NCBI GenBank assembly: GCA_963791595.1
Contig: CAWBTF010000014.1
Location: 455,417-519,416, forward strand
Length of the DNA stretch: 64,000 nt
Source of the DNA: an uncultured beta proteobacterium
GTDB lineage: Bacteria; Pseudomonadota; Gammaproteobacteria; Burkholderiales; Burkholderiaceae_C
Direction of reading: 5' to 3'
The position numbers and the translations under genes were made by a program. How positions within the stretch are numbered: position 1 is the first letter of the stretch; each line of letters opens with the position of its first letter. Of this stretch, positions 26,158 to 33,914 are shown one piece after another. The notes below the pieces were generated by a model. It did no database searches. It was not told where the DNA came from and saw only the letters and a program-made list of their open reading frames with translations.

Positions 26158-27455
26158 ATGGACCTGCAGCAGCTTAGTCGAACCCGACCGCGTCCACAAA
26201 CGCGTCTACACCGACCCGGAAATCTTCGACCTGGAAATGGAGCGCATCTGGGAGCGCACCTGGGTCTACTGCGGCCACGAGTCGCAGGTGAAGGCGCCCG
26301 GCGACTATCACGCGCTGAACATCGGCCGCCAGCCGATGATCATGGTGCGGCAGGCCCAAGATGCGGGCAGCATCCAGGTGCTCTACAACCGCTGCCCGCA
26401 CCGCGGCGTGCAGATCGTCGGCAACCAGCGCGGCAACACCGGCAGCGCGTTTGTGTGCTCGTACCACGCGTGGAGTTTTCACCTCGACGGCAGCGTGCGC
26501 GCGATTCCGCTGGCCAAGGGCTACGAAGGCACGCGCATGACGCGCGACAACCCCGATTGCGCGATGAAGCGCGCCGCGCGCGTGCGAGAGCTATCGCGGC
26601 TTCGTGTTCGCGAGTTTGGTCGACGAAGGCCCGGGCCTGCTCGAATTCCTGGGCGAAGCGAAGATCGCCTTCGACGACATGTGCGACCGCTCGCCCGTCG
26701 GCGAAGTGGAAGTCGTGCCGATCTGCCACCGCGTGATCCAGCAATCGAACTGGAAGTTCTTCATGGAGAACCAGCTCGACGCGCTGCACCCGTCCGTCAC
26801 GCACCAGTCCACCGGCATCTCGGCCGGGCGCGTGGAAAAGCGCCTGAAGGCCGAACGAGGCGCCGCGCCGCTTTACTACCACTACCTGTCCACCTTCGCA
26901 TCGAGCTTCGAGCTGTGGGACAGCGTGCAGACCATCAACTTCCCGCGCGGCCACGGCATCCTCAAGGCCTACATGGGGCTGCGCCCGCAAGACCCGGACA
27001 CGCTGGAATACGAAGCGCTGCTCGAGAAGGCCTACGGCAAGGAGAAGATGGAGGAGTACCTGTCGCGCAGCATCCACCATGTGCTGGTGTATCCGTACCT
27101 CTCGGTGCAGTCGCCCTTGCAGCAGCTGCGTTGCCTGCGGCCGATTTCGGCCGACAAGACGCTGTCGGAAATCTGGCACTTCAGGTTGAAGGGCGCGCCC
27201 GAGGCGATCTACCGCCGGAGCCTGTGGTACTACAACCTCGTCAATTCACCCGCGACGATGATCAACGCCGACGACCTGGAGAACTGGACCAAGGGCCAGT
27301 GGGGCTTGATGTCCAACGGCGGCGACTGGGTGAGTTTTCACCGCTACTTCGGCGACGACCGGGTTGAAGCCGGCGTCACCTACTCGAACCACGGCACGTC
27401 GGAAGCGGTGATGCGCAACCAGTTCGCGGCGTGGACGAAGTACCTCACAGCGTGA
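26158..27455 (+). CDS. aromatic ring-hydroxylating dioxygenase alpha subunit (Rieske [2Fe-2S] plus catalytic domain); two frame breaks near 26175 and 26585
   Basis: Rieske motif CPHRG…CSYHAW; mononuclear-iron catalytic domain in ORF 26604-27455. Confidence 0.8.
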
Positions 27456-27469
27456 AGGGAAGGTGCATC

Positions 27470-28144
27470 ATGAGCATCTCGAAAAACATCCCCAGCGCCG
27501 GCCCCGACTTCGAACACCTGCTCGCGCAGGATGTCGTGATCGAAGCCGATGCCAGCGCGCAGCGCACCGGTGCCCAGGCGATCGAGCCCGACCACTCGCC
27601 GCGCGCGCCGCAGGCCGGCGCGGCAGTCGCAGCGGCTGCCTTGCCGCAGCCTGGCCTGCTCGCGGGCGCCGACGTACAACGCGAAGTCGAGCAGTTCCTC
27701 TACCGTCAAGCAGAGCTGCTGGACGGCAAACACTGGCAGGCGTGGATCGACCTGTTCGACGCGCAAGGCGTGTACTGGATGCCGGTGACGCCCGAGCAAA
27801 CCGAATGGGAAGGCTCGCCGTCGATCTTTGCCGAAGACAAGCTGATGATGGAAATCCGCAAGGGCCGGGTGTCGCACCCGAACGCGTGGTCGCAGGCGCC
27901 GATGTGGGAGACGAACCACCTCGTCAGCCATGTCGCGATCGAAGCGGTGAACGGCGCGGAAATCCAGGTGCGCTCGCGCTTTCACATGATGGAGCTGCGG
28001 CGCGACACGGTGCGCCACTTTGGCGGGCGCTATCGGCATACGCTGGTGCGGGGGTCTGATGGCGGCTTGCGAATCAAGCTGCAGCGCGTCGACTTGTTCA
28101 ATGGGCAGGCGCCGTTCGACTATGTGTTGCAGGTGTGGGTGTGA
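27470..28144 (+). CDS. aromatic ring-hydroxylating dioxygenase beta subunit (NTF2/SnoaL fold) with an unusually long Ala-rich N-terminal extension
   Basis: C-terminal 160 aa …EVEQFLYRQAELLDGKHWQAWIDLFDAQGVYWMP…; RBS GAAGGGAAGG upstream of the ATG. Confidence 0.8.
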   Translation: MSISKNIPSAGPDFEHLLAQDVVIEADASAQRTGAQAIEPDHSPRAPQAGAAVAAAALPQPGLLAGADVQREVEQFLYRQAELLDGKHWQAWIDLFDAQGVYWMPVTPEQTEWEGSPSIFAEDKLMMEIRKGRVSHPNAWSQAPMWETNHLVSHVAIEAVNGAEIQVRSRFHMMELRRDTVRHFGGRYRHTLVRGSDGGLRIKLQRVDLFNGQAPFDYVLQVWV

Positions 28145-28273
28145 AGAAGGCAACGAACACGAAGGGCTCGCTTGACCCGCGAGGCGACATGCCGCTGCGC
28201 CGACGCGACATCGCCGCAGGCAAGCTTGTGGCGCGAGAACCCAGCGCGAGTGGCGCCGTGCTCTCGGAAGCAT

Positions 28274-28651
28274 CTAGGATTCGCCGACCCTCTTTGTTAG
28301 CTCATTGAGCTGCGCCCGCAACGCCCTGCGCCCGGCACTGTTCGTCGCGCGCCAGGCCTGCAGCGCAAGCGCCAGAAACTGCTGCTCCGTCGCCGACACC
28401 CCCACCGGCGCGCGTTCCTCATCCAGCCACCCCTGCAGCTTGCCGCAGTGCTGCTCGATCTGCCGCGCGAGCTTGTCGCCGATCGGCCGTGACGACTTGA
28501 TCTGGCTCCACATGCTGGGCGAAATCTCCAGGCTCGCGGCAAACGCCTGCTCGAGACCCTTGGGCGAATCGCCCGCGGCCAGCGCCTTTTCGGCGAAGGC
28601 CTGAAACAGCGCCAATGCGTTCTGTCGTCGTGTGACGGTGATGTTGGCCAA
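28274..28651 (-). CDS. hypothetical small DNA-binding-like protein (phage CII/Cro-like HTH region …ISPSMWSQIKSSRPIGDKLARQIEQ…)
   Basis: 125-aa ORF divergent from the promoter/small-ORF unit; resemblance to the lambda cII VDKSQISRWKRD segment is by eye only. Confidence 0.45.
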   Translation of the reverse strand: MANITVTRRQNALALFQAFAEKALAAGDSPKGLEQAFAASLEISPSMWSQIKSSRPIGDKLARQIEQHCGKLQGWLDEERAPVGVSATEQQFLALALQAWRATNSAGRRALRAQLNELTKRVGES

Positions 28652-28713
28652 GTCGTGTTGTGTGCAGGAAGCAACGCATTCGAGCGCCGCGATCGCGCCA
28701 TTGTGGCAGGGGG

Positions 28714-28742
28714 TTGACGGCCTCGTAAAGACTCTTTACAGT
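28714..28742 (+). promoter_or_regulatory. sigma70-like promoter TTGACG-N17-TACAGT
   Basis: near-consensus -35 with optimal 17-bp spacing to a 4/6 -10; about 60 nt upstream of a GTG-initiated small ORF preceded by AAGGA. Confidence 0.45.
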
Positions 28743-28802
28743 GCGCCACTTCGCTCGAAAGAGCATTGTTTGCAACCCAGAATTTCGAAGGACCGCATCG
28801 TC

Positions 28803-28985
28803 GTGAAACCCAATCGCATCGTCGGAACGTTCCGCCCCGCCCAGGGACGGGTCGGATTCGCGCCTGCCTTGGCGATGCAGCCTTGGGTCGCCTGCGGCAC
28901 GGCAATGCAACTGTCGTTCGCGACGAGCTATCTGCCGCTTGATCGACATGAGGATCGATTGCACCCGGGGGAGGGAAGCGCGTAG
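28803..28985 (+). CDS. hypothetical small protein (60 aa, GTG start) between the promoter and the intrinsic terminator; alternatively the 5' part of a small RNA
   Basis: frame of ORF 28632-28985; RBS AAGGA 9 nt upstream; no homology recognised. Confidence 0.3.
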   Translation: MKPNRIVGTFRPAQGRVGFAPALAMQPWVACGTAMQLSFATSYLPLDRHEDRLHPGEGSA

Positions 28986-29011
28986 GCGCACCTTCCAACT
29001 CTGTTCGCAGA

Positions 29012-29050
29012 GGCCCGGGCCCGATGAGGACCCGGGCCTTTTTGTTTTCT
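29012..29050 (+). terminator. rho-independent terminator GGCCCGGG-(loop)-CCCGGGCC followed by TTTTTGTTTT
   Basis: 8-bp GC stem plus U-tract, the only strong example on this strand in the region. Confidence 0.65.
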
Positions 29051-29385
29051 GCCTTGGTCTTTCGTTTTCACTCGGCACGCGCATCGGCGCATGCCGGCGA
29101 TCGATGGATCGCGAGGCCGCGAATGCGGTCGCTCTTTAACAATTTGCCGCGAGACGACTTCGGTACTGGCCGAGGCTTCGTCTCGCATTGTTTGCCGGGC
29201 ACGGTTGCGTCTGCGAGGGCGCTCCGTGCCTGAGCGAACCACTTCGGGTGTGCCCATGCACTCCGCTGCCGCATGCCATGGTGTTGGCGGCGCGGGATGT
29301 GCGCGGCCCCAGGCCGGGGCCACATGCAGCGAGACACCACATCCGACGGGATGCTCGCGTGTGGGCACAGCCGAAGTGGAATCTT

Positions 29386-29462
29386 GTCGCGTTCGTCTAG
29401 CCGGCCCAGGACGCCACCCTTTCAAGGTGACTACGCGGGTTCGAGACCCGCACGCGACGCCA
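29386..29462 (+). tRNA. tRNA-Glu (anticodon TTC)
   Basis: cloverleaf folded by hand; D-arm GTCTAGCCGGCCCAGGAC almost identical to E. coli tRNA-Glu; 27-43 mismatch; encoded CCA. Confidence 0.8.
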
Positions 29463-29551
29463 GTCAAGGAACCCTCGTCGAGCTTGTGCTTCGAGGGCGG
29501 AAATCGGCCGCAACGATTGGGCGGCGCCGGAACCCGTGCCCGGATGGAATT

Positions 29552-29627
29552 GCCTCGTTAACTCAGCGGCCAGAGTGCCGGCCTGTCTAGCCGGAAGCCG
29601 CGGGTTCGATCCCCGCACGAGGCGCCA
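29552..29627 (+). tRNA. tRNA-Asp (anticodon GTC)
   Basis: acceptor GCCTCGT/ACGAGGC; anticodon loop CTGTCTA; T-arm GCGGG-TTCGATC-CCCGC; CCA. Confidence 0.8.
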
Positions 29628-29637
29628 GGACAAATCT

Positions 29638-29713
29638 GCCGAGATAGCTCAGCCGGTAGAGCGGCGCGTTGAAGGCGCGTGCGTCGGGGGATCGAAGCCC
29701 TCTCTCGGCACCA
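29638..29713 (+). tRNA. tRNA-Phe (anticodon GAA); atypical G37 and T-loop ATCGAAG (A54)
   Basis: acceptor GCCGAGA/TCTCGGC; D-arm TAGCTCAGCCGGTAGAGC; anticodon loop TTGAAGG. Confidence 0.7.
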
Positions 29714-29719
29714 GACAGA

Positions 29720-29797
29720 ACCTCGTTAGCTCAGTGGAATCAGAGCATCGGCCTACGAAGCCGAGGGTCGCACGTTCGAGTCGTGCACGAGGTGCCA
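29720..29797 (+). tRNA. tRNA-Arg (anticodon ACG)
   Basis: acceptor ACCTCGT/ACGAGGT; anticodon loop CTACGAA; T-arm GCACG-TTCGAGT-CGTGC; CCA. Confidence 0.8.
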
Positions 29798-29802
29798 CTC
29801 AT

Positions 29803-29878
29803 CTCGGTGTGGCGCAGATGGCAGCGCGCGTGCTTCGGGAGCACGGGGTCGCAGGTTCGAGACCTGCCACCGAGACCA
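29803..29878 (+). tRNA. tRNA-Pro (anticodon CGG)
   Basis: acceptor CTCGGTG/CACCGAG; anticodon loop TTCGGGA; T-arm GCAGG-TTCGAGA-CCTGC; CCA. Confidence 0.8.
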
Positions 29879-29899
29879 TTCGACGACGTGCGCTTGGGC

Positions 29900-29973
29900 G
29901 TGGCCGTAGCTCAACGGCAGAGCTGCGGGATGTGACCCCGCCGGTGCCGGTTCGATTCCGGCCGGTCACCCCC
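29900..29973 (+). tRNA. tRNA-His (anticodon GTG); no encoded G-1 (C at -1), C73 discriminator, A32, and a 3' end CCCCA rather than a clean CCA
   Basis: acceptor GTGGCCG/CGGTCAC; D-arm TAGCTCAACGGCAGAGC; anticodon loop ATGTGAC; T-arm GCCGG-TTCGATT-CCGGC. Confidence 0.6.
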
Positions 29974-29990
29974 AAGCGCACACAACCCAC

Positions 29991-30066
29991 GCGTCGCGAA
30001 CTCGAGCGGCAGAGTACCGGGCTTTTAACCCGGCGTGTCAGGGTTCGAGCCCCTGGCGACGCACCA
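29991..30066 (+). tRNA. tRNA-Lys (anticodon TTT)
   Basis: acceptor GCGTCGC/GCGACGC; anticodon loop CTTTTAA; T-arm CAGGG-TTCGAGC-CCCTG; CCA. Confidence 0.8.
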
Positions 30067-30067
30067 C

Positions 30068-30153
30068 CCCCTCGTGGCGGAATCGGCAGACGCGCCGGTC
30101 TCAGAAACCGGTGCCCAAAGGGCATGTCCGTTCGACCCGGACCGAGGGGACCA
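30068..30153 (+). tRNA. tRNA-Leu (anticodon CAG), type II with a long variable arm
   Basis: acceptor CCCCTCG/CGAGGGG; anticodon loop CTCAGAA; variable arm TGCCCAAAGGGCAT; T-arm GTCCG-TTCGACC-CGGAC; CCA. Confidence 0.8.
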
Positions 30154-30157
30154 ATGA

Positions 30158-30233
30158 TGCGGTGTAGTCGAGTGGCCTCAGACACCAGCCTTTGAAGCTG
30201 GGGACGTTGGTTCAAATCCAACCGCCGCTGCCA
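30158..30233 (+). tRNA. tRNA-Gln (anticodon TTG); U1-U72 mismatch at the top of the acceptor stem and a 3-bp D-stem
   Basis: anticodon arm CCAGC-CTTTGAA-GCTGG; T-arm GTTGG-TTCAAAT-CCAAC; CCA. Confidence 0.65.
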
Positions 30234-30274
30234 TCTACAGACCAAGGGACCGGCTTCAGAAAGGAGGCCACGCC

Positions 30275-30850
30275 ATGCACCATCGACAAAGTGGTCACGT
30301 CCTGCAGCTCGACATCCAGGGCACGCCGCAGGCGTGGATCTCGCTCGAGCACGCGGCCGTGCATGTGGCCACGCACTCGGTGGCGTGGGTCGATGGCGAT
30401 GGGCCATTGGCCACGCTGCGCGGCGGCTTCAATGTCGCGCACGGCCGGCAGTCTTGCATCGACGTGCACCCGATCATGGCGCTGCACGGTGCGTCGAAGG
30501 TCAACCTGTTCGACGTGGCTCCGGCGTTCAGCAAGGCCAAGCTGTTCCGGCGCGACCGGATGACTTGCGCGTACTGCGGCCAGCGCTTTCCCGAGCGCGA
30601 TCTGCAATGCGAACACATCGTGCCGCAGTCGCGCGGCGGGCGCTGGAGCTGGATGAACCTGGTGACGGCGTGCGCGCTGTGCAACGGCCGCAAGGCCGAC
30701 CGCACGCCGGAGCAGGCGCGCATGCCGCTGCTGTACCTGCCGTATGTGCCGAGCCGGTTTGAAGACTTTCTGCTCGAAGGCCGGAACATCCGCGCCGACG
30801 TGCATGACTGGCTGGCCGCGCGCCTGCCGAAGGGATCGCGCCTGAGTTGA
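30275..30850 (+). CDS. HNH endonuclease with an ~100-aa N-terminal domain of unknown function
   Basis: HNH zinc-finger motifs CAYCG…CEHIVPQSRGG…NLVTACALCNGRK; strong SD AAAGGAGG 8 nt before the ATG; 41 nt downstream of the last tRNA. Confidence 0.85.
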   Translation: MHHRQSGHVLQLDIQGTPQAWISLEHAAVHVATHSVAWVDGDGPLATLRGGFNVAHGRQSCIDVHPIMALHGASKVNLFDVAPAFSKAKLFRRDRMTCAYCGQRFPERDLQCEHIVPQSRGGRWSWMNLVTACALCNGRKADRTPEQARMPLLYLPYVPSRFEDFLLEGRNIRADVHDWLAARLPKGSRLS

Positions 30851-31009
30851 TTCATTCAATTCGGGCGCCAACGAGTCTGCTGCGAAAAGCGAACGCTCAC
30901 AGGTCAGGGGTTCGGGCCGAGTTCAAGACAAGGCCCGCCCCGCCGGTGTGCGGCACCCGGCTTCGGCCGTGGGTGCTGCACATGCCGCGCCGCTGGAAAC
31001 AGCCGATGC

Positions 31010-31066
31010 GGGCCGTCAATGGATTGCACCGCGAGGTGCCGGGTTCGATCCCCGGATGGCCCTCCA
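31010..31066 (+). ncRNA. 57-nt tRNA-like minihelix: a 7-bp acceptor stem (GGGCCGU/AUGGCCC), a GCACC-GCGA-GGUGC tetraloop hairpin, a canonical T-arm (CCGGG-TTCGATC-CCCGG), discriminator U and CCA; no D-arm or anticodon arm
   Basis: hand folding; either an internally deleted tRNA remnant or a tRNA-like domain of a larger ncRNA. Confidence 0.4.
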
Positions 31067-31140
31067 CTGGATAGCTCAGATGGGTAGAGCAACGACCTGA
31101 TAAGTCGTGTGTCGCGGGTTCGACTCCCGCTCCAAAGCAC
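31065..31140 (+). pseudogene. tRNA-Ile(GAT)-like pseudogene: intact D-arm, anticodon arm (ACGAC-CTGATAA-GTCGT) and T-arm, but the acceptor-stem strands (CACTGGA vs TCCAAAG) do not pair; a tRNA-Cys-like anticodon hairpin (CTGGA-CTGCAAA-TCCAG) follows at about 31146-31162
   Basis: hand folding of the sequence between the HNH gene and the SPFH gene. Confidence 0.45.
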
Positions 31141-31432
31141 TGGACTGCAAATCCAGCTATTCGAACGGTCGAAAGACCACCGCCGAACGCGTGCAGGGGG
31201 TGGGTCGCACCCAGGGCAGGTTCGCTTGCCCGAGGTGCGCGAAGCCCACCGCACGTCAGCCCTGGCGGCCCGGCATGGAACCCGCCCGGCCCGCGCCCAC
31301 GGCCAGCCGAAGTTGCGTCTCCAAGACGCGACCGACGCGCACCGTGACGCCCGGTCCACGGCACTCCGTGCCCACCGCCACCGCTGTAACGGCACCCTTT
31401 TCAAACGACGCATGACCACAAGGAGAACGATC

Positions 31433-32569
31433 ATGCAATTCAAGCGAGTCACTGTGAAGAAGTACGAGCGCGGCGTGTTGCTGCGCAATGGCGACTTCGA
31501 GCGCGTGTTGCAACCCGGCACGCACTGGCTGTTCGCGGCCATCGACCAGCTGCGCGTCGAGACCTTCGCGCTCGAACAGCCGGCGTTCACGCATGGCCTC
31601 ACCGACTACCTGATGGCCAAGGAGCCCGAGGTCGTCGCGGCCGAGTTCGTTCGCGTGGAGTTGAGCGAAACCCAGGTCGGCCTGCGCACCGAGAACGGCG
31701 TGCTCGTCGAGGTGCTGGCCCCCGCGACGCGGCGCCTGTACTGGAAGGGCCAGGTCGACGTGCGCGTGGATGTCATCGACATCGCCGCGACGGCCGAAGT
31801 GCCTGCCGCGGTGGTGGCACGCCTGGTGCAGACGCAACTGCGGCAACGCGCGGTTGCCGGCCTGGCCGGTGTGCTGCAAGTGCAGGTTCCCGAGCATGGC
31901 GCGGGCGTGTTGTGGGTCGACGGCAAGGTTCAGCAGTTGCTCGGCCCCGGCTCGTACGCGTTCTGGAAGTTCAACCGCAATGTCGCGGTGGAAGCCGTCG
32001 ACCTGCGCTTGCAGGCGCTCGAAGTCACCGGCCAGGAAATCCTGACGAGCGACAAGGTGAGCCTGCGGTTGAACCTGTCGGCGACCTGGCGCTACACCGA
32101 TGTGCTGAAGGCCTTCACGCAACTGCAAAAGCCCGCGGAACACCTGTACCGCGAGCTGCAGTTCGGCCTGCGCTCGGCGGTCGGGACACGCTCGCTGGAC
32201 GAGTTGTTGGAGAACAAGACGGTGATCGACGAAGTCGTCACCGCTCAAGTGAAGGCCAAGCTCTCGGGCTATGGCCTGCAACTCGACGGCGTGGGCGTGA
32301 AGGACATTGTGTTGCCCGGCGAGATGAAGACGATCCTGGCGCAAGTGGTCGAGGCGGAGAAGGCGGCGCAAGCCAACGTGATCCGCCGGCGCGAGGAAAC
32401 CGCGGCCACGCGTTCCCTGCTCAACACGGCCAAGGTGATGGAGGGCAACCCCGTCGCTCTGCGCATGAAGGAGCTGGAGACGCTGGAACGCGTGGCCGAG
32501 CGCATCGACAAGATCTCCGTGTTCGGGGGTCTGGACCAGGTGCTCAACGGGCTGGTGAAGCTGCAGTAA
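31433..32569 (+). CDS. SPFH/band-7 (stomatin/prohibitin/flotillin/HflKC) domain protein
   Basis: 378 aa; RBS AAGGAG upstream of the ATG at 31433; N-terminal hydrophobic segment and a long coiled-coil C-terminus typical of SPFH proteins. Confidence 0.75.
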   Translation: MQFKRVTVKKYERGVLLRNGDFERVLQPGTHWLFAAIDQLRVETFALEQPAFTHGLTDYLMAKEPEVVAAEFVRVELSETQVGLRTENGVLVEVLAPATRRLYWKGQVDVRVDVIDIAATAEVPAAVVARLVQTQLRQRAVAGLAGVLQVQVPEHGAGVLWVDGKVQQLLGPGSYAFWKFNRNVAVEAVDLRLQALEVTGQEILTSDKVSLRLNLSATWRYTDVLKAFTQLQKPAEHLYRELQFGLRSAVGTRSLDELLENKTVIDEVVTAQVKAKLSGYGLQLDGVGVKDIVLPGEMKTILAQVVEAEKAAQANVIRRREETAATRSLLNTAKVMEGNPVALRMKELETLERVAERIDKISVFGGLDQVLNGLVKLQ

Positions 32570-32687
32570 TGGCCCACCCCCGAAGCGGCTTACGCCGCTC
32601 CCCCTCAAGGGGGCAAACACCAGCGGACCGGCAAAGCCGGATCCGCGGTGTTCGCTTGAAATGTCATGCATCATGGAGTGAGAAATC

Positions 32688-33914
32688 ATGGAAACGAACT
32701 ACATTGAAGAAGCCGTTCCCGGCGGCGTGCCGGTGAAGATGTGGACGCGCGGCGTTCCCATCGAAGACGAGGCGAAGCGCCAACTCACGAATGCGGCGCG
32801 CCTGCCGATCGTGTTCAAGCACATCGCGGCGATGCCCGACGTTCACTTCGGCATCGGCGCGACCGTCGGCTCGGTGATCCCCACGCTGCGCGCCATCATT
32901 CCGGCCGCGGTGGGCGTGGACATCGGCTGCGGCATGATGGCCGCGAAGACGACGCTGACGGCGGACGACCTGCCCGACAACCTGGGCCCGCTGCGCGCGG
33001 CAATCGAGCGCGCCGTGCCGCACGGCCGAGCGCCGGGCTCGCGCGATCCGGGTGCGTGGGGGAACTCACATAAGGCGCCCGGCTCGGTGAACACGGCATG
33101 GGCGCAGCTCGAACCCGAGTTCACCGAGCTGTGCCGCGACTTCCCCAAGCTCGCGAAGACGAACCACATCCAGCACCTGGGAACGCTGGGCAGCGGCAAC
33201 CATTTCATCGAGGTGTGCCTGGACGAGGAAGGCTTCGTCTGGTTCATGCTGCACTCGGGCTCGCGCGGCGTGGGCAACGCGATCGGCACGATGTTCATCG
33301 AGCTCGCCAAGCAGGATGCGCTGCGCAACAACATGAACCTGCCCGACCGCGACCTCGCGTACTTCGAGGAAGGCGCGCGCTACTTCGGCGACTACGTGCG
33401 CGCGGTCGGCTGGGCGCAGCGCTTCGCGGCGATCAACCGCGAAACGATGATGAAGCGCGTGATCGACGCGGCGAAGACCGTGATCGCGAAGAGCTTTCAA
33501 AGCCACATCGAAGCGGTGAACTGCCACCACAACTACGTGCAGAAGGAGACGCACTTCGGAGAAGACGTGTACGTCACGCGCAAGGGCGCGGTGAGCGCGA
33601 AGGCCGGGCAGCTGGGAATCATTCCCGGCAGCATGGGCGCGCGCAGCTACATCGTGCGCGGCAAGGGCAACGCGGACAGCTTCGAGAGCTGCTCGCACGG
33701 CGCAGGCCGCGTGATGAGCCGCGGTGAAGCGAAGCGTCGCTTCACCCTGGCCGACCACCGCGCCGCGACGGAAGGCGTGGAGTGCCGCAAGGACAAGGAC
33801 GTGATCGACGAAACGCCCGCCGCGTACAAGGACATCGACGCGGTGATGCAGGCGCAGCGCGACCTGGTCGACGTGGTGCACACCTTGAAGCAGGTGGTGT
33901 GTGTGAAGGGATAG
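32688..33914 (+). CDS. rtcB: RNA-splicing ligase RtcB (3'-phosphate/5'-hydroxyl RNA ligase), 408 aa, closely E. coli-like; no adjacent rtcA or rtcR
   Basis: METNYIEEAVPGGVPVKMWTRGVPIEDEAKRQL…MPDVHFGIGATVGSVIPT…CSHGAGR conserved metal- and GMP-binding motifs. Confidence 0.92.
   Translation: METNYIEEAVPGGVPVKMWTRGVPIEDEAKRQLTNAARLPIVFKHIAAMPDVHFGIGATVGSVIPTLRAIIPAAVGVDIGCGMMAAKTTLTADDLPDNLGPLRAAIERAVPHGRAPGSRDPGAWGNSHKAPGSVNTAWAQLEPEFTELCRDFPKLAKTNHIQHLGTLGSGNHFIEVCLDEEGFVWFMLHSGSRGVGNAIGTMFIELAKQDALRNNMNLPDRDLAYFEEGARYFGDYVRAVGWAQRFAAINRETMMKRVIDAAKTVIAKSFQSHIEAVNCHHNYVQKETHFGEDVYVTRKGAVSAKAGQLGIIPGSMGARSYIVRGKGNADSFESCSHGAGRVMSRGEAKRRFTLADHRAATEGVECRKDKDVIDETPAAYKDIDAVMQAQRDLVDVVHTLKQVVCVKG

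What the first reader, a model, noticed from the sequence alone, without database searches (positions are those of the whole stretch)
30851..31432. tRNA-like remnants and a 57-nt tRNA minihelix between the HNH and SPFH/RtcB genes
The 580-bp spacer contains three elements. (i) A 57-nt element at 31010-31066 has a perfect 7-bp acceptor stem, a GNRA-tetraloop hairpin, a canonical T-arm, discriminator and CCA, but no D-arm or anticodon arm. (ii) A tRNA-Ile(GAT)-like gene (31065-31140) has intact D, anticodon and T arms but acceptor strands that cannot pair. (iii) A tRNA-Cys-like anticodon hairpin lies at about 31146-31162. These could be decayed array members. Alternatively, they could belong to a structured ncRNA carrying a tRNA-like domain: bacterial Y RNAs (YrlA) carry a tRNA-like module and are encoded next to rtcB in the rsr-yrlA-rtcBA operon. 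No Ro60/Rsr homologue is present in this window.
Basis: partly seen in the sequence, partly recalled or inferred. Interest (0 to 1): 0.55.

Follow-up and report, generated by a model that had tools for sequence, protein, structure and literature searches.

The report
tRNA-mimic RNA of SPFH–RtcB repair operon
The three "tRNA remnants" are conserved, base-pair-covarying modules of one ~520-nt structured non-coding RNA that precedes the SPFH–RtcB RNA-repair genes in many bacteria. It is the predicted but never validated "band-7-associated tRNA", which turns out to be much larger than a tRNA.

Summary
The 57-nt CCA-tailed minihelix (31010-31066), the tRNA-Ile-like cloverleaf (31068-31134) and the anticodon-like hairpin (31140-31156) are all present.

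They are not debris. The whole HNH–SPFH spacer is conserved at 65-83% DNA identity in 80 Burkholderiales loci. A covariance model finds exactly one copy per locus (window: 174 bits). 29 of 37 modelled pairs show compensatory changes, and 94.7% of cells are paired against 35-45% in slid controls.

The "anticodon" is free to vary: 23 different triplets, and a tetraloop-sized cap in 19 of 78 copies. So the cloverleaf is a tRNA mimic, not a decoding tRNA.

Two flanking closed domains (30875-31007 and 31182-31393) also covary. Together they give a ~520-nt RNA that ends about 40 nt before the SPFH start codon.

In relatives such as Acidovorax, Burkholderia, Photobacterium and E. coli, the RNA starts just downstream of a sigma-54 promoter; except in E. 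coli, RtcR is encoded divergently upstream of it. In this window a tRNA array plus an HNH gene occupy that place.

The RNA matches the "b7a-tRNA" predicted by Burroughs & Aravind (2016) beside Band-7/RtcB genes. It is not YrlA (18.9 bits against a threshold of 69).

The function is inferred: a tRNA-mimic cofactor and/or leader of the repair operon. The multi-domain architecture is not in Rfam 15, and I found no description of it.

The parts
29386..30233 (+). Array of 9 tRNA genes, all with encoded CCA. This is upstream context and is probably co-transcribed.
   Evidence: ARAGORN, Rfam tRNA, sequence. No promoter-like or terminator-like site was found between the array and SPFH.
30275..30850 (+). 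HNH endonuclease gene (191 aa) directly abutting the RNA.
   Evidence: Pfam HNH_5, 6e-17. It is conserved between array and RNA in about 50 related loci.
30839..30868 (+). Hairpin spanning the HNH stop codon (GCGCCUGAGU-UGAUUCAUUCA-AUUCGGGCGC). It is found only in loci that carry HNH. It may be a processing signal or a transcript boundary.
   Evidence: The alignment shows compensatory changes (GCCUGUGC/GCACAGGC, GCCUGAAC/GUUCAGGC). It has no U-tract.
30875..31007 (+). 5' domain: a closed multi-helix domain. P1 pairs 30875-30882 with 31000-31007. Inside are the hairpin GGGG...CCCC and a long hairpin flanked by the near-invariant GGUG / CAUGCCGC.
   Evidence: RNAalifold on 70 sequences gave 37 pairs, 27 with compensatory changes. 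In Acidovorax this domain starts a few nt downstream of a sigma-54 promoter.
31010..31066 (+). Module 1: a CCA-tailed minihelix. It has a 7-bp acceptor, a 10-nt linker containing GG, a GNRA-capped hairpin, a tRNA-type T arm, and U + CCA.
   Evidence: Sequence. CM R1 and the count of structure pairs: the acceptor helix has 4/4 modelled pairs covarying, and the hairpin and T arm covary. N-CCA is present in 60 of 78 distinct Burkholderiales copies.
31068..31134 (+). Module 2: a tRNA-like cloverleaf (b7a-tRNA type). It has a 4-bp acceptor UGGA/UCCA, an invariant D arm, a covarying 'anticodon' arm with a non-conserved loop, and a T arm.
   Evidence: ARAGORN tRNA-Ile(GAT). Rfam tRNA 51.8 bits, model positions 4-67. 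Orthologues are called with 10 or more different anticodons. There are 23 different triplets, and 4-5-nt caps in 19 of 78 copies (3 more have loops of 2 or 6 nt). Anticodon stem: 5/5 pairs covary.
31140..31156 (+). Module 3 remnant: an optional anticodon-arm-like hairpin (5 bp, loop CUGCAAA).
   Evidence: It is present in 43 of 78 copies, with variable loops that are often CU-NNN-AA or GNRA. In low-GC relatives the same position holds a D arm plus an anticodon-like arm.
31167..31178 (+). Near-invariant GGUC-GNRA-GACC hairpin, followed by the conserved ACCGCCGAACG.
   Evidence: Alignment. 99% of cells paired (helix 9).
31182..31393 (+). 3' domain: a closed multi-helix domain. GCCG 31182-85 pairs with CGGC 31390-93, CAG 31257-59 with CUG 31384-86, and GCGUGC 31189-94 with GCACGU 31251-56. 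A long branched stem lies inside.
   Evidence: RNAalifold on 60 sequences gave 44 pairs, 32 with compensatory changes. The closing pairs are invariant, so they cannot be tested by covariation.
31421..31435 (+). Shine-Dalgarno AAGGAGA and the ATG (31433) of the SPFH/slipin gene.
   Evidence: Conserved in the alignment. Pfam Band_7, 5e-33.
31433..32569 (+). SPFH/Band-7 (slipin family) gene.
   Evidence: Pfam. Homologues are named 'slipin family protein'.
32688..33914 (+). RtcB RNA ligase gene.
   Evidence: Pfam RtcB, 7e-129.

Best explanation
The spacer encodes one conserved structured non-coding RNA of about 520 nt (30875-31393, + strand). It is transcribed ahead of, and probably together with, the SPFH (Band-7/slipin) and RtcB RNA-ligase genes.

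Its centre is a chain of tRNA-derived modules. The first is an acceptor/T-arm minihelix ending in N-CCA. The second is a cloverleaf that keeps the D-arm/T-arm 'elbow' of a tRNA but has a truncated acceptor and a freely varying or capped anticodon loop. The third is an optional anticodon-like hairpin. Two closed multi-helix domains flank this chain.

Shown here:
- conservation and covariation
- one copy per locus
- fixed position and orientation upstream of SPFH
- a sigma-54 promoter with divergent RtcR in relatives
- a non-conserved anticodon

Inferred:
- The RNA works as a tRNA mimic. It presents one or two tRNA elbows or minihelices to the operon's proteins (the SPFH oligomer, RtcB) and to tRNA-recognising enzymes. 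Y RNA/YrlA does the same for Ro60 in rsr-yrlA-rtcBA operons.
- In that role it would either scaffold repair of cleaved tRNAs or compete with tRNAs for the damaging nucleases.
- RNase P and 3' trimming at the encoded CCA may cut it into pieces. This last step is speculative.
For: - The whole spacer aligns at 65-83% identity in 80 loci from many Burkholderiales genera.
- CM R1 finds a single copy per locus at 100-182 bits (window 174.1), with Photobacterium at 84.7 and B. cenocepacia at 76.1. Array tRNA pairs score at most 73 bits.
- Covariation: 94.7% of cells paired, 29/37 pairs with double changes, score 0.436 against 0.129 shuffled and at most 0.074 slid.
- The 5' and 3' domains have 27/37 and 32/44 pairs with compensatory changes.
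- Orthologues carry 23 different 'anticodons' or 4-5-nt (tetraloop-type) caps.
- The element is present in loci with no array or HNH gene (Acidovorax, Burkholderia, Photobacterium).
- In relatives, RtcR (PF06956 + Sigma54_activat) is divergent, and a sigma-54 promoter sits about 10-15 nt before the RNA's first helix.
- SPFH genes in distant, low-GC metagenome loci are also preceded by tandem tRNA-type T arms, often with tRNA arrays upstream and RtcB downstream.
- Literature: b7a-tRNA was predicted next to Band-7 and RtcB (10.1101/312249). The P. aeruginosa homologue PA4581.1 lies between rtcR and the SPFH-rtcB cluster, lacks CCA, and is detected by qRT-PCR (PMC13637947). YrlA is cleaved by RNase P and receives CCA (PMC4201824).
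Against: - There are no expression data for this organism.
- The window has no RtcR and no sigma-54 promoter. Transcription here must come from the array/HNH unit or from an undetected promoter.
- The original b7a-tRNA description could not be read. Identity with that family rests on a second-hand quotation plus gene context.
- No protein-RNA contact is shown.
- The CCA is absent in B. cenocepacia and Photobacterium. In low-GC relatives the acceptor end is closed by a loop. A free CCA 3' end therefore cannot be essential to the family.
- The closing helices of the 3' domain are invariant and so untested.
- CM-derived alignments lean towards the modelled structure.
Confidence: 0.7

Rival explanations
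1. Cis-acting leader or sensor. The RNA is the 5' UTR of the SPFH-rtcB mRNA, and its tRNA-like modules sense tRNA status. They might be cut by the same anticodon nucleases or by RNase P, or they might bind tRNA fragments. The outcome would tune translation or stability of the downstream genes. This is not exclusive of the best explanation.
For: - The RNA is always on the same strand and immediately upstream of SPFH, ending about 30-60 nt before the SD.
- In E. coli and Photobacterium the conserved 3' motif (CUGUUAAGCAAGGA / UAUCAGCAAGGA) runs into the SD.
- In relatives a sigma-54 promoter directly precedes it, so it is by position the operon leader.
- There is no terminator between the RNA and SPFH.
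Against: - No terminator/antiterminator or SD-sequestering alternative pairing was found.
- The distance from the 3' domain to the SD is variable and unconserved in Burkholderiales.
- The size and the three independently closed domains are unusual for a leader.
- In 19 of 78 copies the anticodon loop is replaced by a 4-5-nt cap (mostly GNRA tetraloops), so sensing by anticodon-loop cleavage cannot be general.
Confidence: 0.3
2. Processed small RNAs. RNase P cuts 5' of G31010 and 3' maturation stops at the encoded CCA. This releases a stable ~57-nt CCA-ended minihelix (and the other pieces) as separate small RNAs. The minihelix would be the active species, for example a substrate or competitor for the CCA-adding enzyme, EF-Tu or RtcB.
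For: - The acceptor/T-arm stack plus N-CCA is the classic minimal RNase P / CCA-enzyme substrate (established knowledge).
- N-CCA is kept in 60/78 Burkholderiales copies, although the acceptor sequence itself changes freely.
- M. smegmatis YrlA is cut by RNase P and gets CCA (PMC4201824).
Against: - The CCA is missing in Burkholderia and Photobacterium homologues.
- The equivalent acceptor is a closed hairpin in low-GC relatives.
- The discriminator and acceptor carry no conserved identity element.
- No end-mapping data exist.
Confidence: 0.25
3. Pseudogene debris: decayed members of the neighbouring tRNA array with no function.
For: - The elements lie 0.8 kb downstream of a tRNA array.
- The modules are clearly tRNA-derived.
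- The acceptor of module 2 is truncated, and the third module is often absent.
Against: - Conservation with compensatory changes is seen across 80 loci and in distant genera.
- The elements are present where no array exists.
- There is one copy at a fixed position.
- The D and T loops are invariant.
Confidence: 0.02
4. A genuine decoding tRNA-Ile(GAT) gene plus unrelated flanking sequence.
For: ARAGORN call and an Rfam tRNA score above the gathering threshold.
Against: - Positions 1-3 and 70-72 are mostly unpaired, and there is no 3' CCA, although all nine array tRNAs encode one.
- Orthologous copies read as Met, Ile, Thr, Val, Phe, Glu, Cys, Leu, Pro or '???', or they carry tetraloops.
Confidence: 0.02
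5. A Y RNA (YrlA family member) that binds a Ro60/Rsr protein encoded elsewhere.
For: - There is a weak partial Rfam YrlA match (T arm, then D arm).
- The gene neighbourhood with rtcB parallels rsr-yrlA-rtcBA.
- Distant relatives have the YrlA-like order T arm, capped acceptor, D arm.
Against: - The score is 18.9 bits against a gathering score of 69.
- No YrlA hit was found in 20 related loci.
- In the window the acceptor is open, not capped.
- No Ro-binding stem was identified.
- The adjacent genes are HNH and SPFH, not rsr.
Confidence: 0.04

Closest known systems
[quoted passage not shown]
   Same: A tRNA-like gene encoded next to a Band-7/SPFH gene and RtcB, and proposed as the cognate ncRNA of the SPFH scaffold. 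Module 2 of this RNA fits that description. The P. aeruginosa copy is annotated as tRNA PA4581.1.
   Different: [quoted passage not shown] Here the cloverleaf is only ~67 nt of a ~520-nt covarying RNA. That RNA also has a second tRNA-derived minihelix, a third optional arm, a GNRA hairpin and two large closed domains. I could not check whether the original paper describes these parts.
YrlA / bacterial Y RNA (Rfam RF02553) of rsr-yrlBA-rtcBA operons
   Same: An ncRNA with a tRNA-elbow mimic, encoded inside an RtcR/sigma-54-controlled RtcB operon and partnered with a ring- or cage-forming protein. Low-GC relatives of this RNA even share the permuted order T arm, capped acceptor, D arm.
   Different: It does not match the family model (18.9 against 69 bits). 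There is no adjacent Rsr and no recognisable Ro-binding stem. The protein partner is SPFH. In this window the acceptor helix is open and ends in CCA.
Canonical tRNA (RF00005)
   Same: The D arm, T arm and overall cloverleaf of module 2 score 51.8 bits.
   Different: The acceptor is truncated, there is no 3' CCA, and the anticodon is not conserved or is replaced by a tetraloop. It sits at a fixed position in a larger RNA.
Long tRNA arrays (L-arrays) and the translational-stress regulon of Anabaena (PMC8421152, PMC10272220)
   Same: The same four gene kinds (tRNA array, HNH endonuclease, slipin, RtcB) are co-regulated in Anabaena and are physically linked here.
   Different: In Anabaena they are dispersed and controlled by the repressor TrcR. 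No tRNA-mimic RNA upstream of slipin was reported there.
Large 'ornate' bacterial ncRNAs such as OLE, GOLLD and ROOL (from memory)
   Same: The size class (300-600+ nt), many covarying helices and GNRA tetraloops. GOLLD and ROOL are also often found near tRNA genes.
   Different: There is no sequence or model match (Rfam gathering and E-value searches). The gene association (SPFH-RtcB) is different.

Membership tests
b7a-tRNA (Band-7-associated tRNA-like RNA) | Encoded adjacent to a Band-7/SPFH gene that is linked to RtcB | tested here: met
   The RNA ends 40 nt before SPFH (PF01145). RtcB (PF01139) follows. An SPFH-upstream RNA matching R1 at 76-182 bits is seen in 79 of the 80 Burkholderiales loci plus B. 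cenocepacia and Photobacterium, and RtcB lies downstream in most of them.
b7a-tRNA (Band-7-associated tRNA-like RNA) | Strong resemblance to an authentic tRNA | tested here: met
   ARAGORN tRNA-Ile call. Rfam tRNA 51.8 bits against a gathering score of 29.
b7a-tRNA (Band-7-associated tRNA-like RNA) | Match to the original authors' alignment or definition | not testable with these tools
   The paper is not held and there is no Rfam family for it.
YrlA / Y RNA (RF02553) | Score at or above the Rfam gathering threshold | tested here: not met
   18.9 bits against 69, a partial match to model positions 27-81. No hit in 20 related loci.
YrlA / Y RNA (RF02553) | Permuted tRNA-like domain: T arm, loop-capped acceptor, D arm | tested here: not met
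   In the window and in Burkholderiales the acceptor is an open helix formed with an upstream strand (helices 1-2). The permuted form does occur in low-GC relatives.
YrlA / Y RNA (RF02553) | Adjacent Ro60/Rsr (TROVE) gene and a Ro-binding stem | tested here: not met
   The flanking genes are HNH and SPFH. The rest of the 64-kb window was not scanned for TROVE domains.
Decoding tRNA (RF00005) | Cloverleaf scoring above the gathering threshold | tested here: met
   51.8 bits.
Decoding tRNA (RF00005) | Full 7-bp acceptor with discriminator and CCA end | tested here: not met
   Only model positions 4-67 align. There are 4 contiguous pairs and the 3' side continues AAAGCA. All nine array tRNAs do encode CCA.
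Decoding tRNA (RF00005) | Anticodon conserved among orthologues | tested here: not met
   23 different triplets, and 4-5-nt caps in 19 of 78 copies.
tmRNA | tRNA-like domain plus a tag reading frame | tested here: not met
   ARAGORN finds no tmRNA in the window. There is no Rfam hit.
mascRNA-type tRNA-like small RNA (RF01684) | Score at or above the gathering threshold | tested here: not met
   The minihelix scores 19.2 bits against 42.5.
RtcR/sigma-54-controlled RNA repair operon | Divergent rtcR and a sigma-54 promoter upstream of the operon | tested here: not met
   Window: no RtcR by tblastn and no sigma-54 promoter match at or upstream of the RNA. The feature is met in Acidovorax, Rhizobacter, Albitalea, B. 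cenocepacia and Photobacterium relatives.

The most novel reading that the evidence does not exclude
The b7a-tRNA may be only the recognisable tip of an unrecognised class of large (about 300-600 nt) ornate RNAs. These would be spread from Firmicutes and Flavobacteria-like bacteria to Proteobacteria, including about 30% of E. coli genomes. They would be built from two or three tRNA-derived modules, in open or circularly permuted topology, between two closed multi-helix domains. On this reading the RNA is the RNA subunit of an SPFH-cage ribonucleoprotein that captures broken tRNAs for RtcB (or for the RlaP nucleotidyltransferase). That would make it a bacterial counterpart of Ro-Y RNA or vault-vtRNA particles.
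Probability: 0.25. Interest if true: 0.85.

Novelty: new member of a known kind. Interest (0 to 1): 0.6.

Why it matters
What bacterial RtcB repairs, and with which cofactors, is still open. RtcR is known to sense broken tRNAs, and the Ro-Y RNA branch has been studied. The SPFH branch and its predicted tRNA-like RNA had not been validated experimentally as of the 2018 preprint, and I found no later study.

This analysis makes that RNA concrete:
- its boundaries
- about 120 base pairs, most of them supported by covariation
- a non-decoding tRNA elbow and a minihelix
- a sigma-54/RtcR promoter in relatives
- homologues in tractable hosts: E. coli isolates, P. aeruginosa PA4581.1 and Acidovorax

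It also warns that genome annotations list these elements as ordinary tRNAs with arbitrary anticodons. Finally, it shows a physical fusion of a tRNA array, an HNH gene, the mimic RNA, SPFH and RtcB. That fusion mirrors the co-regulated translational-stress regulon of Anabaena.

Tried and rejected
- **Rfam.** The gathering search of the whole window and the E-value search of the spacer gave only tRNA above threshold. YrlA, mascRNA, tRNA-Sec and BcKCsr2 hits were far below their thresholds.
- **INPHARED phages.** Only generic tRNA similarity by DNA. No SPFH homologue by protein.
- **IMG/VR.** A DNA pattern for the GNRA hairpin motif gave 10 hits. None matched the covariance model or carried SPFH, RtcB or HNH, so they are chance hits. 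The SPFH protein scan found nothing.
- **Sigma-54 promoter pattern in the window.** No more hits than chance, and none at or upstream of the RNA (the nearest, at 31815, lies inside the SPFH gene). The conserved GUAACGGCACC near the 3' end was considered as a -24/-12 promoter. It was rejected because the -12 GC is not conserved and the motif pairs within the 3' domain.
- **Sigma-70 promoter and terminator scan of 28900-31500.** Nothing usable.
- **Single-sequence MFE of the minihelix.** It gave a non-tRNA inner fold, which the comparative data overrule.
- **Burroughs & Aravind 2016.** Could not be retrieved by DOI or PMC id.
- **Protein-coding reading of the spacer** (upstream GTG extension of SPFH at 31109, and antisense ORFs). 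Rejected because of variable-length hairpin insertions, helix covariation, and the conserved SD and ATG at 31433.
- **Pfam and NCBIfam on the two ORFs upstream of the array** (27380-28273 and 28419-29084, minus strand). No hits.
Full report
**Setting.** The window is a 65-70% GC chromosome segment. The SPFH protein's closest relatives are from Piscinibacter, Aquabacterium and Rubrivivax, all Burkholderiales. The local order on the + strand is as follows:
- nine tRNA genes, all with encoded CCA, at 29386-30233
- an HNH endonuclease gene at 30275-30850
- the 582-bp spacer in question
- an SPFH/Band-7 'slipin' gene at 31433-32569
- RtcB at 32688-33914

**Observation.** The three reported elements are there.

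The minihelix at 31010-31066 has these parts:
- a 7-bp acceptor that includes one G·U pair
- a 10-nt linker
- a GCGA-capped hairpin
- a tRNA-type T arm
- U + CCA

The next element is called tRNA-Ile(GAT) by ARAGORN. It scores 51.8 bits with Rfam tRNA, but only over model positions 4-67.

**Conservation.** I used the SPFH protein as an anchor and fetched 80 related genomic loci. The whole spacer, not just the three elements, aligns at 65-83% identity across many genera. Several blocks are near-invariant.

ARAGORN calls the orthologous cloverleaf Met, Ile, Thr, Val, Phe, Glu, Cys, Leu, Pro or 'unknown'. In Acidovorax it makes essentially no call (one locus is called Cys).

The alignments show free compensatory variation in three places: the minihelix acceptor, its GNRA hairpin, and both T arms. 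In 19 of 78 distinct copies the 7-nt 'anticodon' loop is replaced by a 4-5-nt cap, mostly a GNRA tetraloop. The other 56 seven-nt loops carry 23 different triplets.

I built a covariance model of minihelix + cloverleaf + GNRA hairpin (R1). It finds exactly one copy per locus at 100-182 bits (window 174.1). It also finds Photobacterium (84.7 bits) and Burkholderia cenocepacia (76.1 bits). Tandem array tRNAs stay at 73 bits or below.

On the model-based alignment of 81 copies:
- 94.7% of cells form pairs, against 77% shuffled and 35-45% slid.
- 29 of 37 pairs show double changes.
- The covariation score is 0.436, against 0.129 shuffled and at most 0.074 slid.
- No shuffle out of 500 reaches the observed values.

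This rules out 'debris' and a decoding tRNA.

**The real extent.** The flanks are structured too.

The 5' domain is 30875-31007. It is closed by a covarying helix (30875-82 with 31000-07), and 27 of its 37 predicted pairs have compensatory changes.

The 3' domain is 31182-31393. It is closed by the invariant GCCG:CGGC and CAG:CUG, and 32 of its 44 pairs have compensatory changes.

Between module 2 and the 3' domain lie two further features:
- the optional third hairpin, present in 43 of 78 copies
- a near-invariant GGUC-GNRA-GACC hairpin

The object is therefore one RNA of about 520 nt, or a tightly packed set of RNAs. It ends about 40 nt before the SPFH start codon. A further hairpin spans the HNH stop codon, but only in loci that have HNH.

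**Transcriptional context.** An RtcR homologue (PF06956 + sigma-54 activator domain) is encoded divergently in Acidovorax, Rhizobacter, Albitalea, B. cenocepacia and Photobacterium. In those loci a sigma-54-type promoter lies a few nucleotides before the first helix of the RNA; E. coli has the promoter, but its upstream neighbour is yjbD, not rtcR:
- Acidovorax: CTGGCACGCATCTGGCAAT
- B. cenocepacia: TGGCACGCTCCTCGCT
- E. coli: TGGCACGCTTCTCGCA

In those genomes the RNA is thus the first transcribed part of a sigma-54 operon (RtcR-linked except in E. coli). This matches the position that the Y RNAs hold in the Salmonella rsr-yrlBA-rtcBA operon.

The window itself has no RtcR. It has no sigma-54 promoter match at or upstream of the RNA. 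No sigma-70 promoter or terminator was predicted between the array and SPFH. Here the tRNA array plus HNH gene abut the RNA, which suggests read-through from the array unit.

**Wider distribution.** Homologous SPFH genes with a long upstream non-coding region occur in several other places.

1629 of 5426 complete E. coli genomes have one. The order there is sigma-54 promoter, a reduced RNA with one T arm, slipin, the RlaP nucleotidyltransferase, and a zeta-toxin-family gene on the opposite strand. Nothing is annotated in the 529-bp intergenic region.

Photobacterium has two complete tandem tRNA-like units. A Firmicute (Subdoligranulum) has a GNRA hairpin followed by two T arms.

A metagenome scan with an SPFH alignment returned 80 diverse loci with GC from 0.29 to 0.67. 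Most carry one or two tRNA-type T arms 260-600 nt upstream of SPFH. Many also have tRNA arrays further upstream and RtcB downstream.

In the low-GC, Flavobacteria-like group the topology differs. The order is T arm 1, then a loop-capped acceptor-like hairpin, then a D arm, a short linker, and T arm 2. There, 99% of cells are paired, all five hairpin pairs covary, and the score is 0.659 against 0.211 shuffled.

That is the permuted arrangement known from YrlA. The same three-dimensional unit, an acceptor/T-arm stack next to a D arm, is therefore built in two topologies. This also argues that a free CCA end is not essential to the family.

**Comparison with the literature.** Wang et al. (bioRxiv 10.1101/312249) summarise Burroughs & Aravind 2016. 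[quoted passage not shown] This RNA strongly resembles a tRNA, is proposed to be functionally analogous to YrlA, and has not been validated experimentally. The original paper is not in the library.

In P. aeruginosa the SPFH gene PA4582 sits in the rtc locus (PMC13086221 and PMC8619066). An odd 'tRNA-Arg4' (PA4581.1) without CCA lies between rtcR and that cluster, and it is detectable by qRT-PCR (PMC13637947). This is the only expression evidence for a homologue that I found.

[quoted passage not shown] YrlA is a substrate for RNase P and CCA addition (PMC4201824).

In Anabaena a long tRNA array, an HNH gene, rtcB and a slipin gene are co-regulated by TrcR during translational stress (PMC8421152 and PMC10272220). 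These are the same four gene kinds that are physically fused in this window.

**Mechanism.** The data directly show a conserved, structured, single-copy RNA. It is fixed upstream of SPFH, has tRNA-elbow features under strong constraint, and has no decoding constraint.

By analogy I infer that the RNA acts as a tRNA mimic for the SPFH/RtcB system. It could scaffold repair, or it could compete with tRNAs for the damaging nucleases. It might also act as a cis leader.

Cleavage by RNase P at the minihelix and trimming to the encoded CCA are plausible for the Burkholderiales form. They remain unproven, and they cannot be general to the family.

**Verdict.** The finding is real and functional-looking. 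Its tRNA-like core belongs to a kind already predicted in 2016. It is not YrlA and it is not debris.

Several points appear to go beyond what I could find described, and none of them is in Rfam 15:
- the minihelix
- the two flanking domains, giving about 520 nt in total
- the open and permuted topologies
- the fusion with a tRNA array and HNH gene in place of RtcR

Noticed in passing
window 29386-33914: A tRNA array, an HNH gene, the tRNA-mimic RNA, slipin and RtcB are physically contiguous and co-oriented, with no predicted promoter or terminator between them. The same four gene kinds (tRNA L-array, HNH all8564, slipin alr0740, rtcB all3526) form the TrcR translational-stress regulon in Anabaena (PMC10272220).
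   Followed up: partly
window (whole) versus L052-L079, L028, L063, L082, L083: Relatives have a divergent rtcR and a sigma-54 promoter right before the RNA. The window has neither: the array + HNH module abuts the RNA's first helix. L028 (Albitalea) keeps RtcR, with the array + HNH lying beyond it, which looks like an intermediate arrangement.
   Followed up: partly
L081 / L085 (E. coli, between yjbD and lysC): 1629 of 5426 complete E. coli genomes carry a sigma-54 promoter, a ~300-nt reduced homologue of this RNA (a single T arm), slipin, the RlaP nucleotidyltransferase (PF10127) and an opposite-strand zeta-toxin-family gene. The 529-bp intergenic region has no annotation.
   Followed up: partly
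L133-L172 (metagenome loci), e.g. L156:2544-2622: In low-GC relatives the order is T arm, loop-capped acceptor hairpin (often GNRA), D arm, T arm. This is a YrlA-like circularly permuted tRNA mimic, and the hairpin covaries strongly. A further D arm plus an anticodon-like arm follows.
   Followed up: yes
L020, L031, L045, L074, L075 (about positions 1640-2865): A second, divergent RtcB paralogue (55% identity) lies between the tRNA array and HNH. In these loci no RtcB was found downstream of SPFH within the fetched flank.
   Followed up: no
L004:5200-6096 and similar loci with a ~1-kb gap between SPFH and RtcB: An extra gene between SPFH and RtcB encodes a ClpP-like SDH-type serine protease, an NfeD-like partner typical of SPFH operons. 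The Acidovorax gene at the same place (L052:5141-5950) has no Pfam hit.
   Followed up: partly
window 30839-30868: A hairpin spans the HNH stop codon. It shows compensatory changes among HNH-bearing loci and has no U-tract, so it is not a canonical terminator.
   Followed up: partly
window 30275-30850: The closest NCBIfam similarities of the HNH protein's nuclease motif are sub-threshold hits to the HNH domains of IscB and Cas9d. The protein is only 191 aa.
   Followed up: no
L001-L080 at the position homologous to window 31065-31138; P. aeruginosa PA4581.1: tRNA finders call the mimic a tRNA with arbitrary identity (Met, Ile, Thr, Val, Phe, Glu, Cys, Leu, Pro). The P. aeruginosa copy is annotated 'tRNA-Arg4'. 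These calls probably inflate tRNA gene counts in genome annotations.
   Followed up: partly
window 27380-28273 (-) and 28419-29084 (-): Two ORFs upstream of the tRNA array have no Pfam or NCBIfam match. It is not known whether they are real genes or regulators of the array.
   Followed up: no
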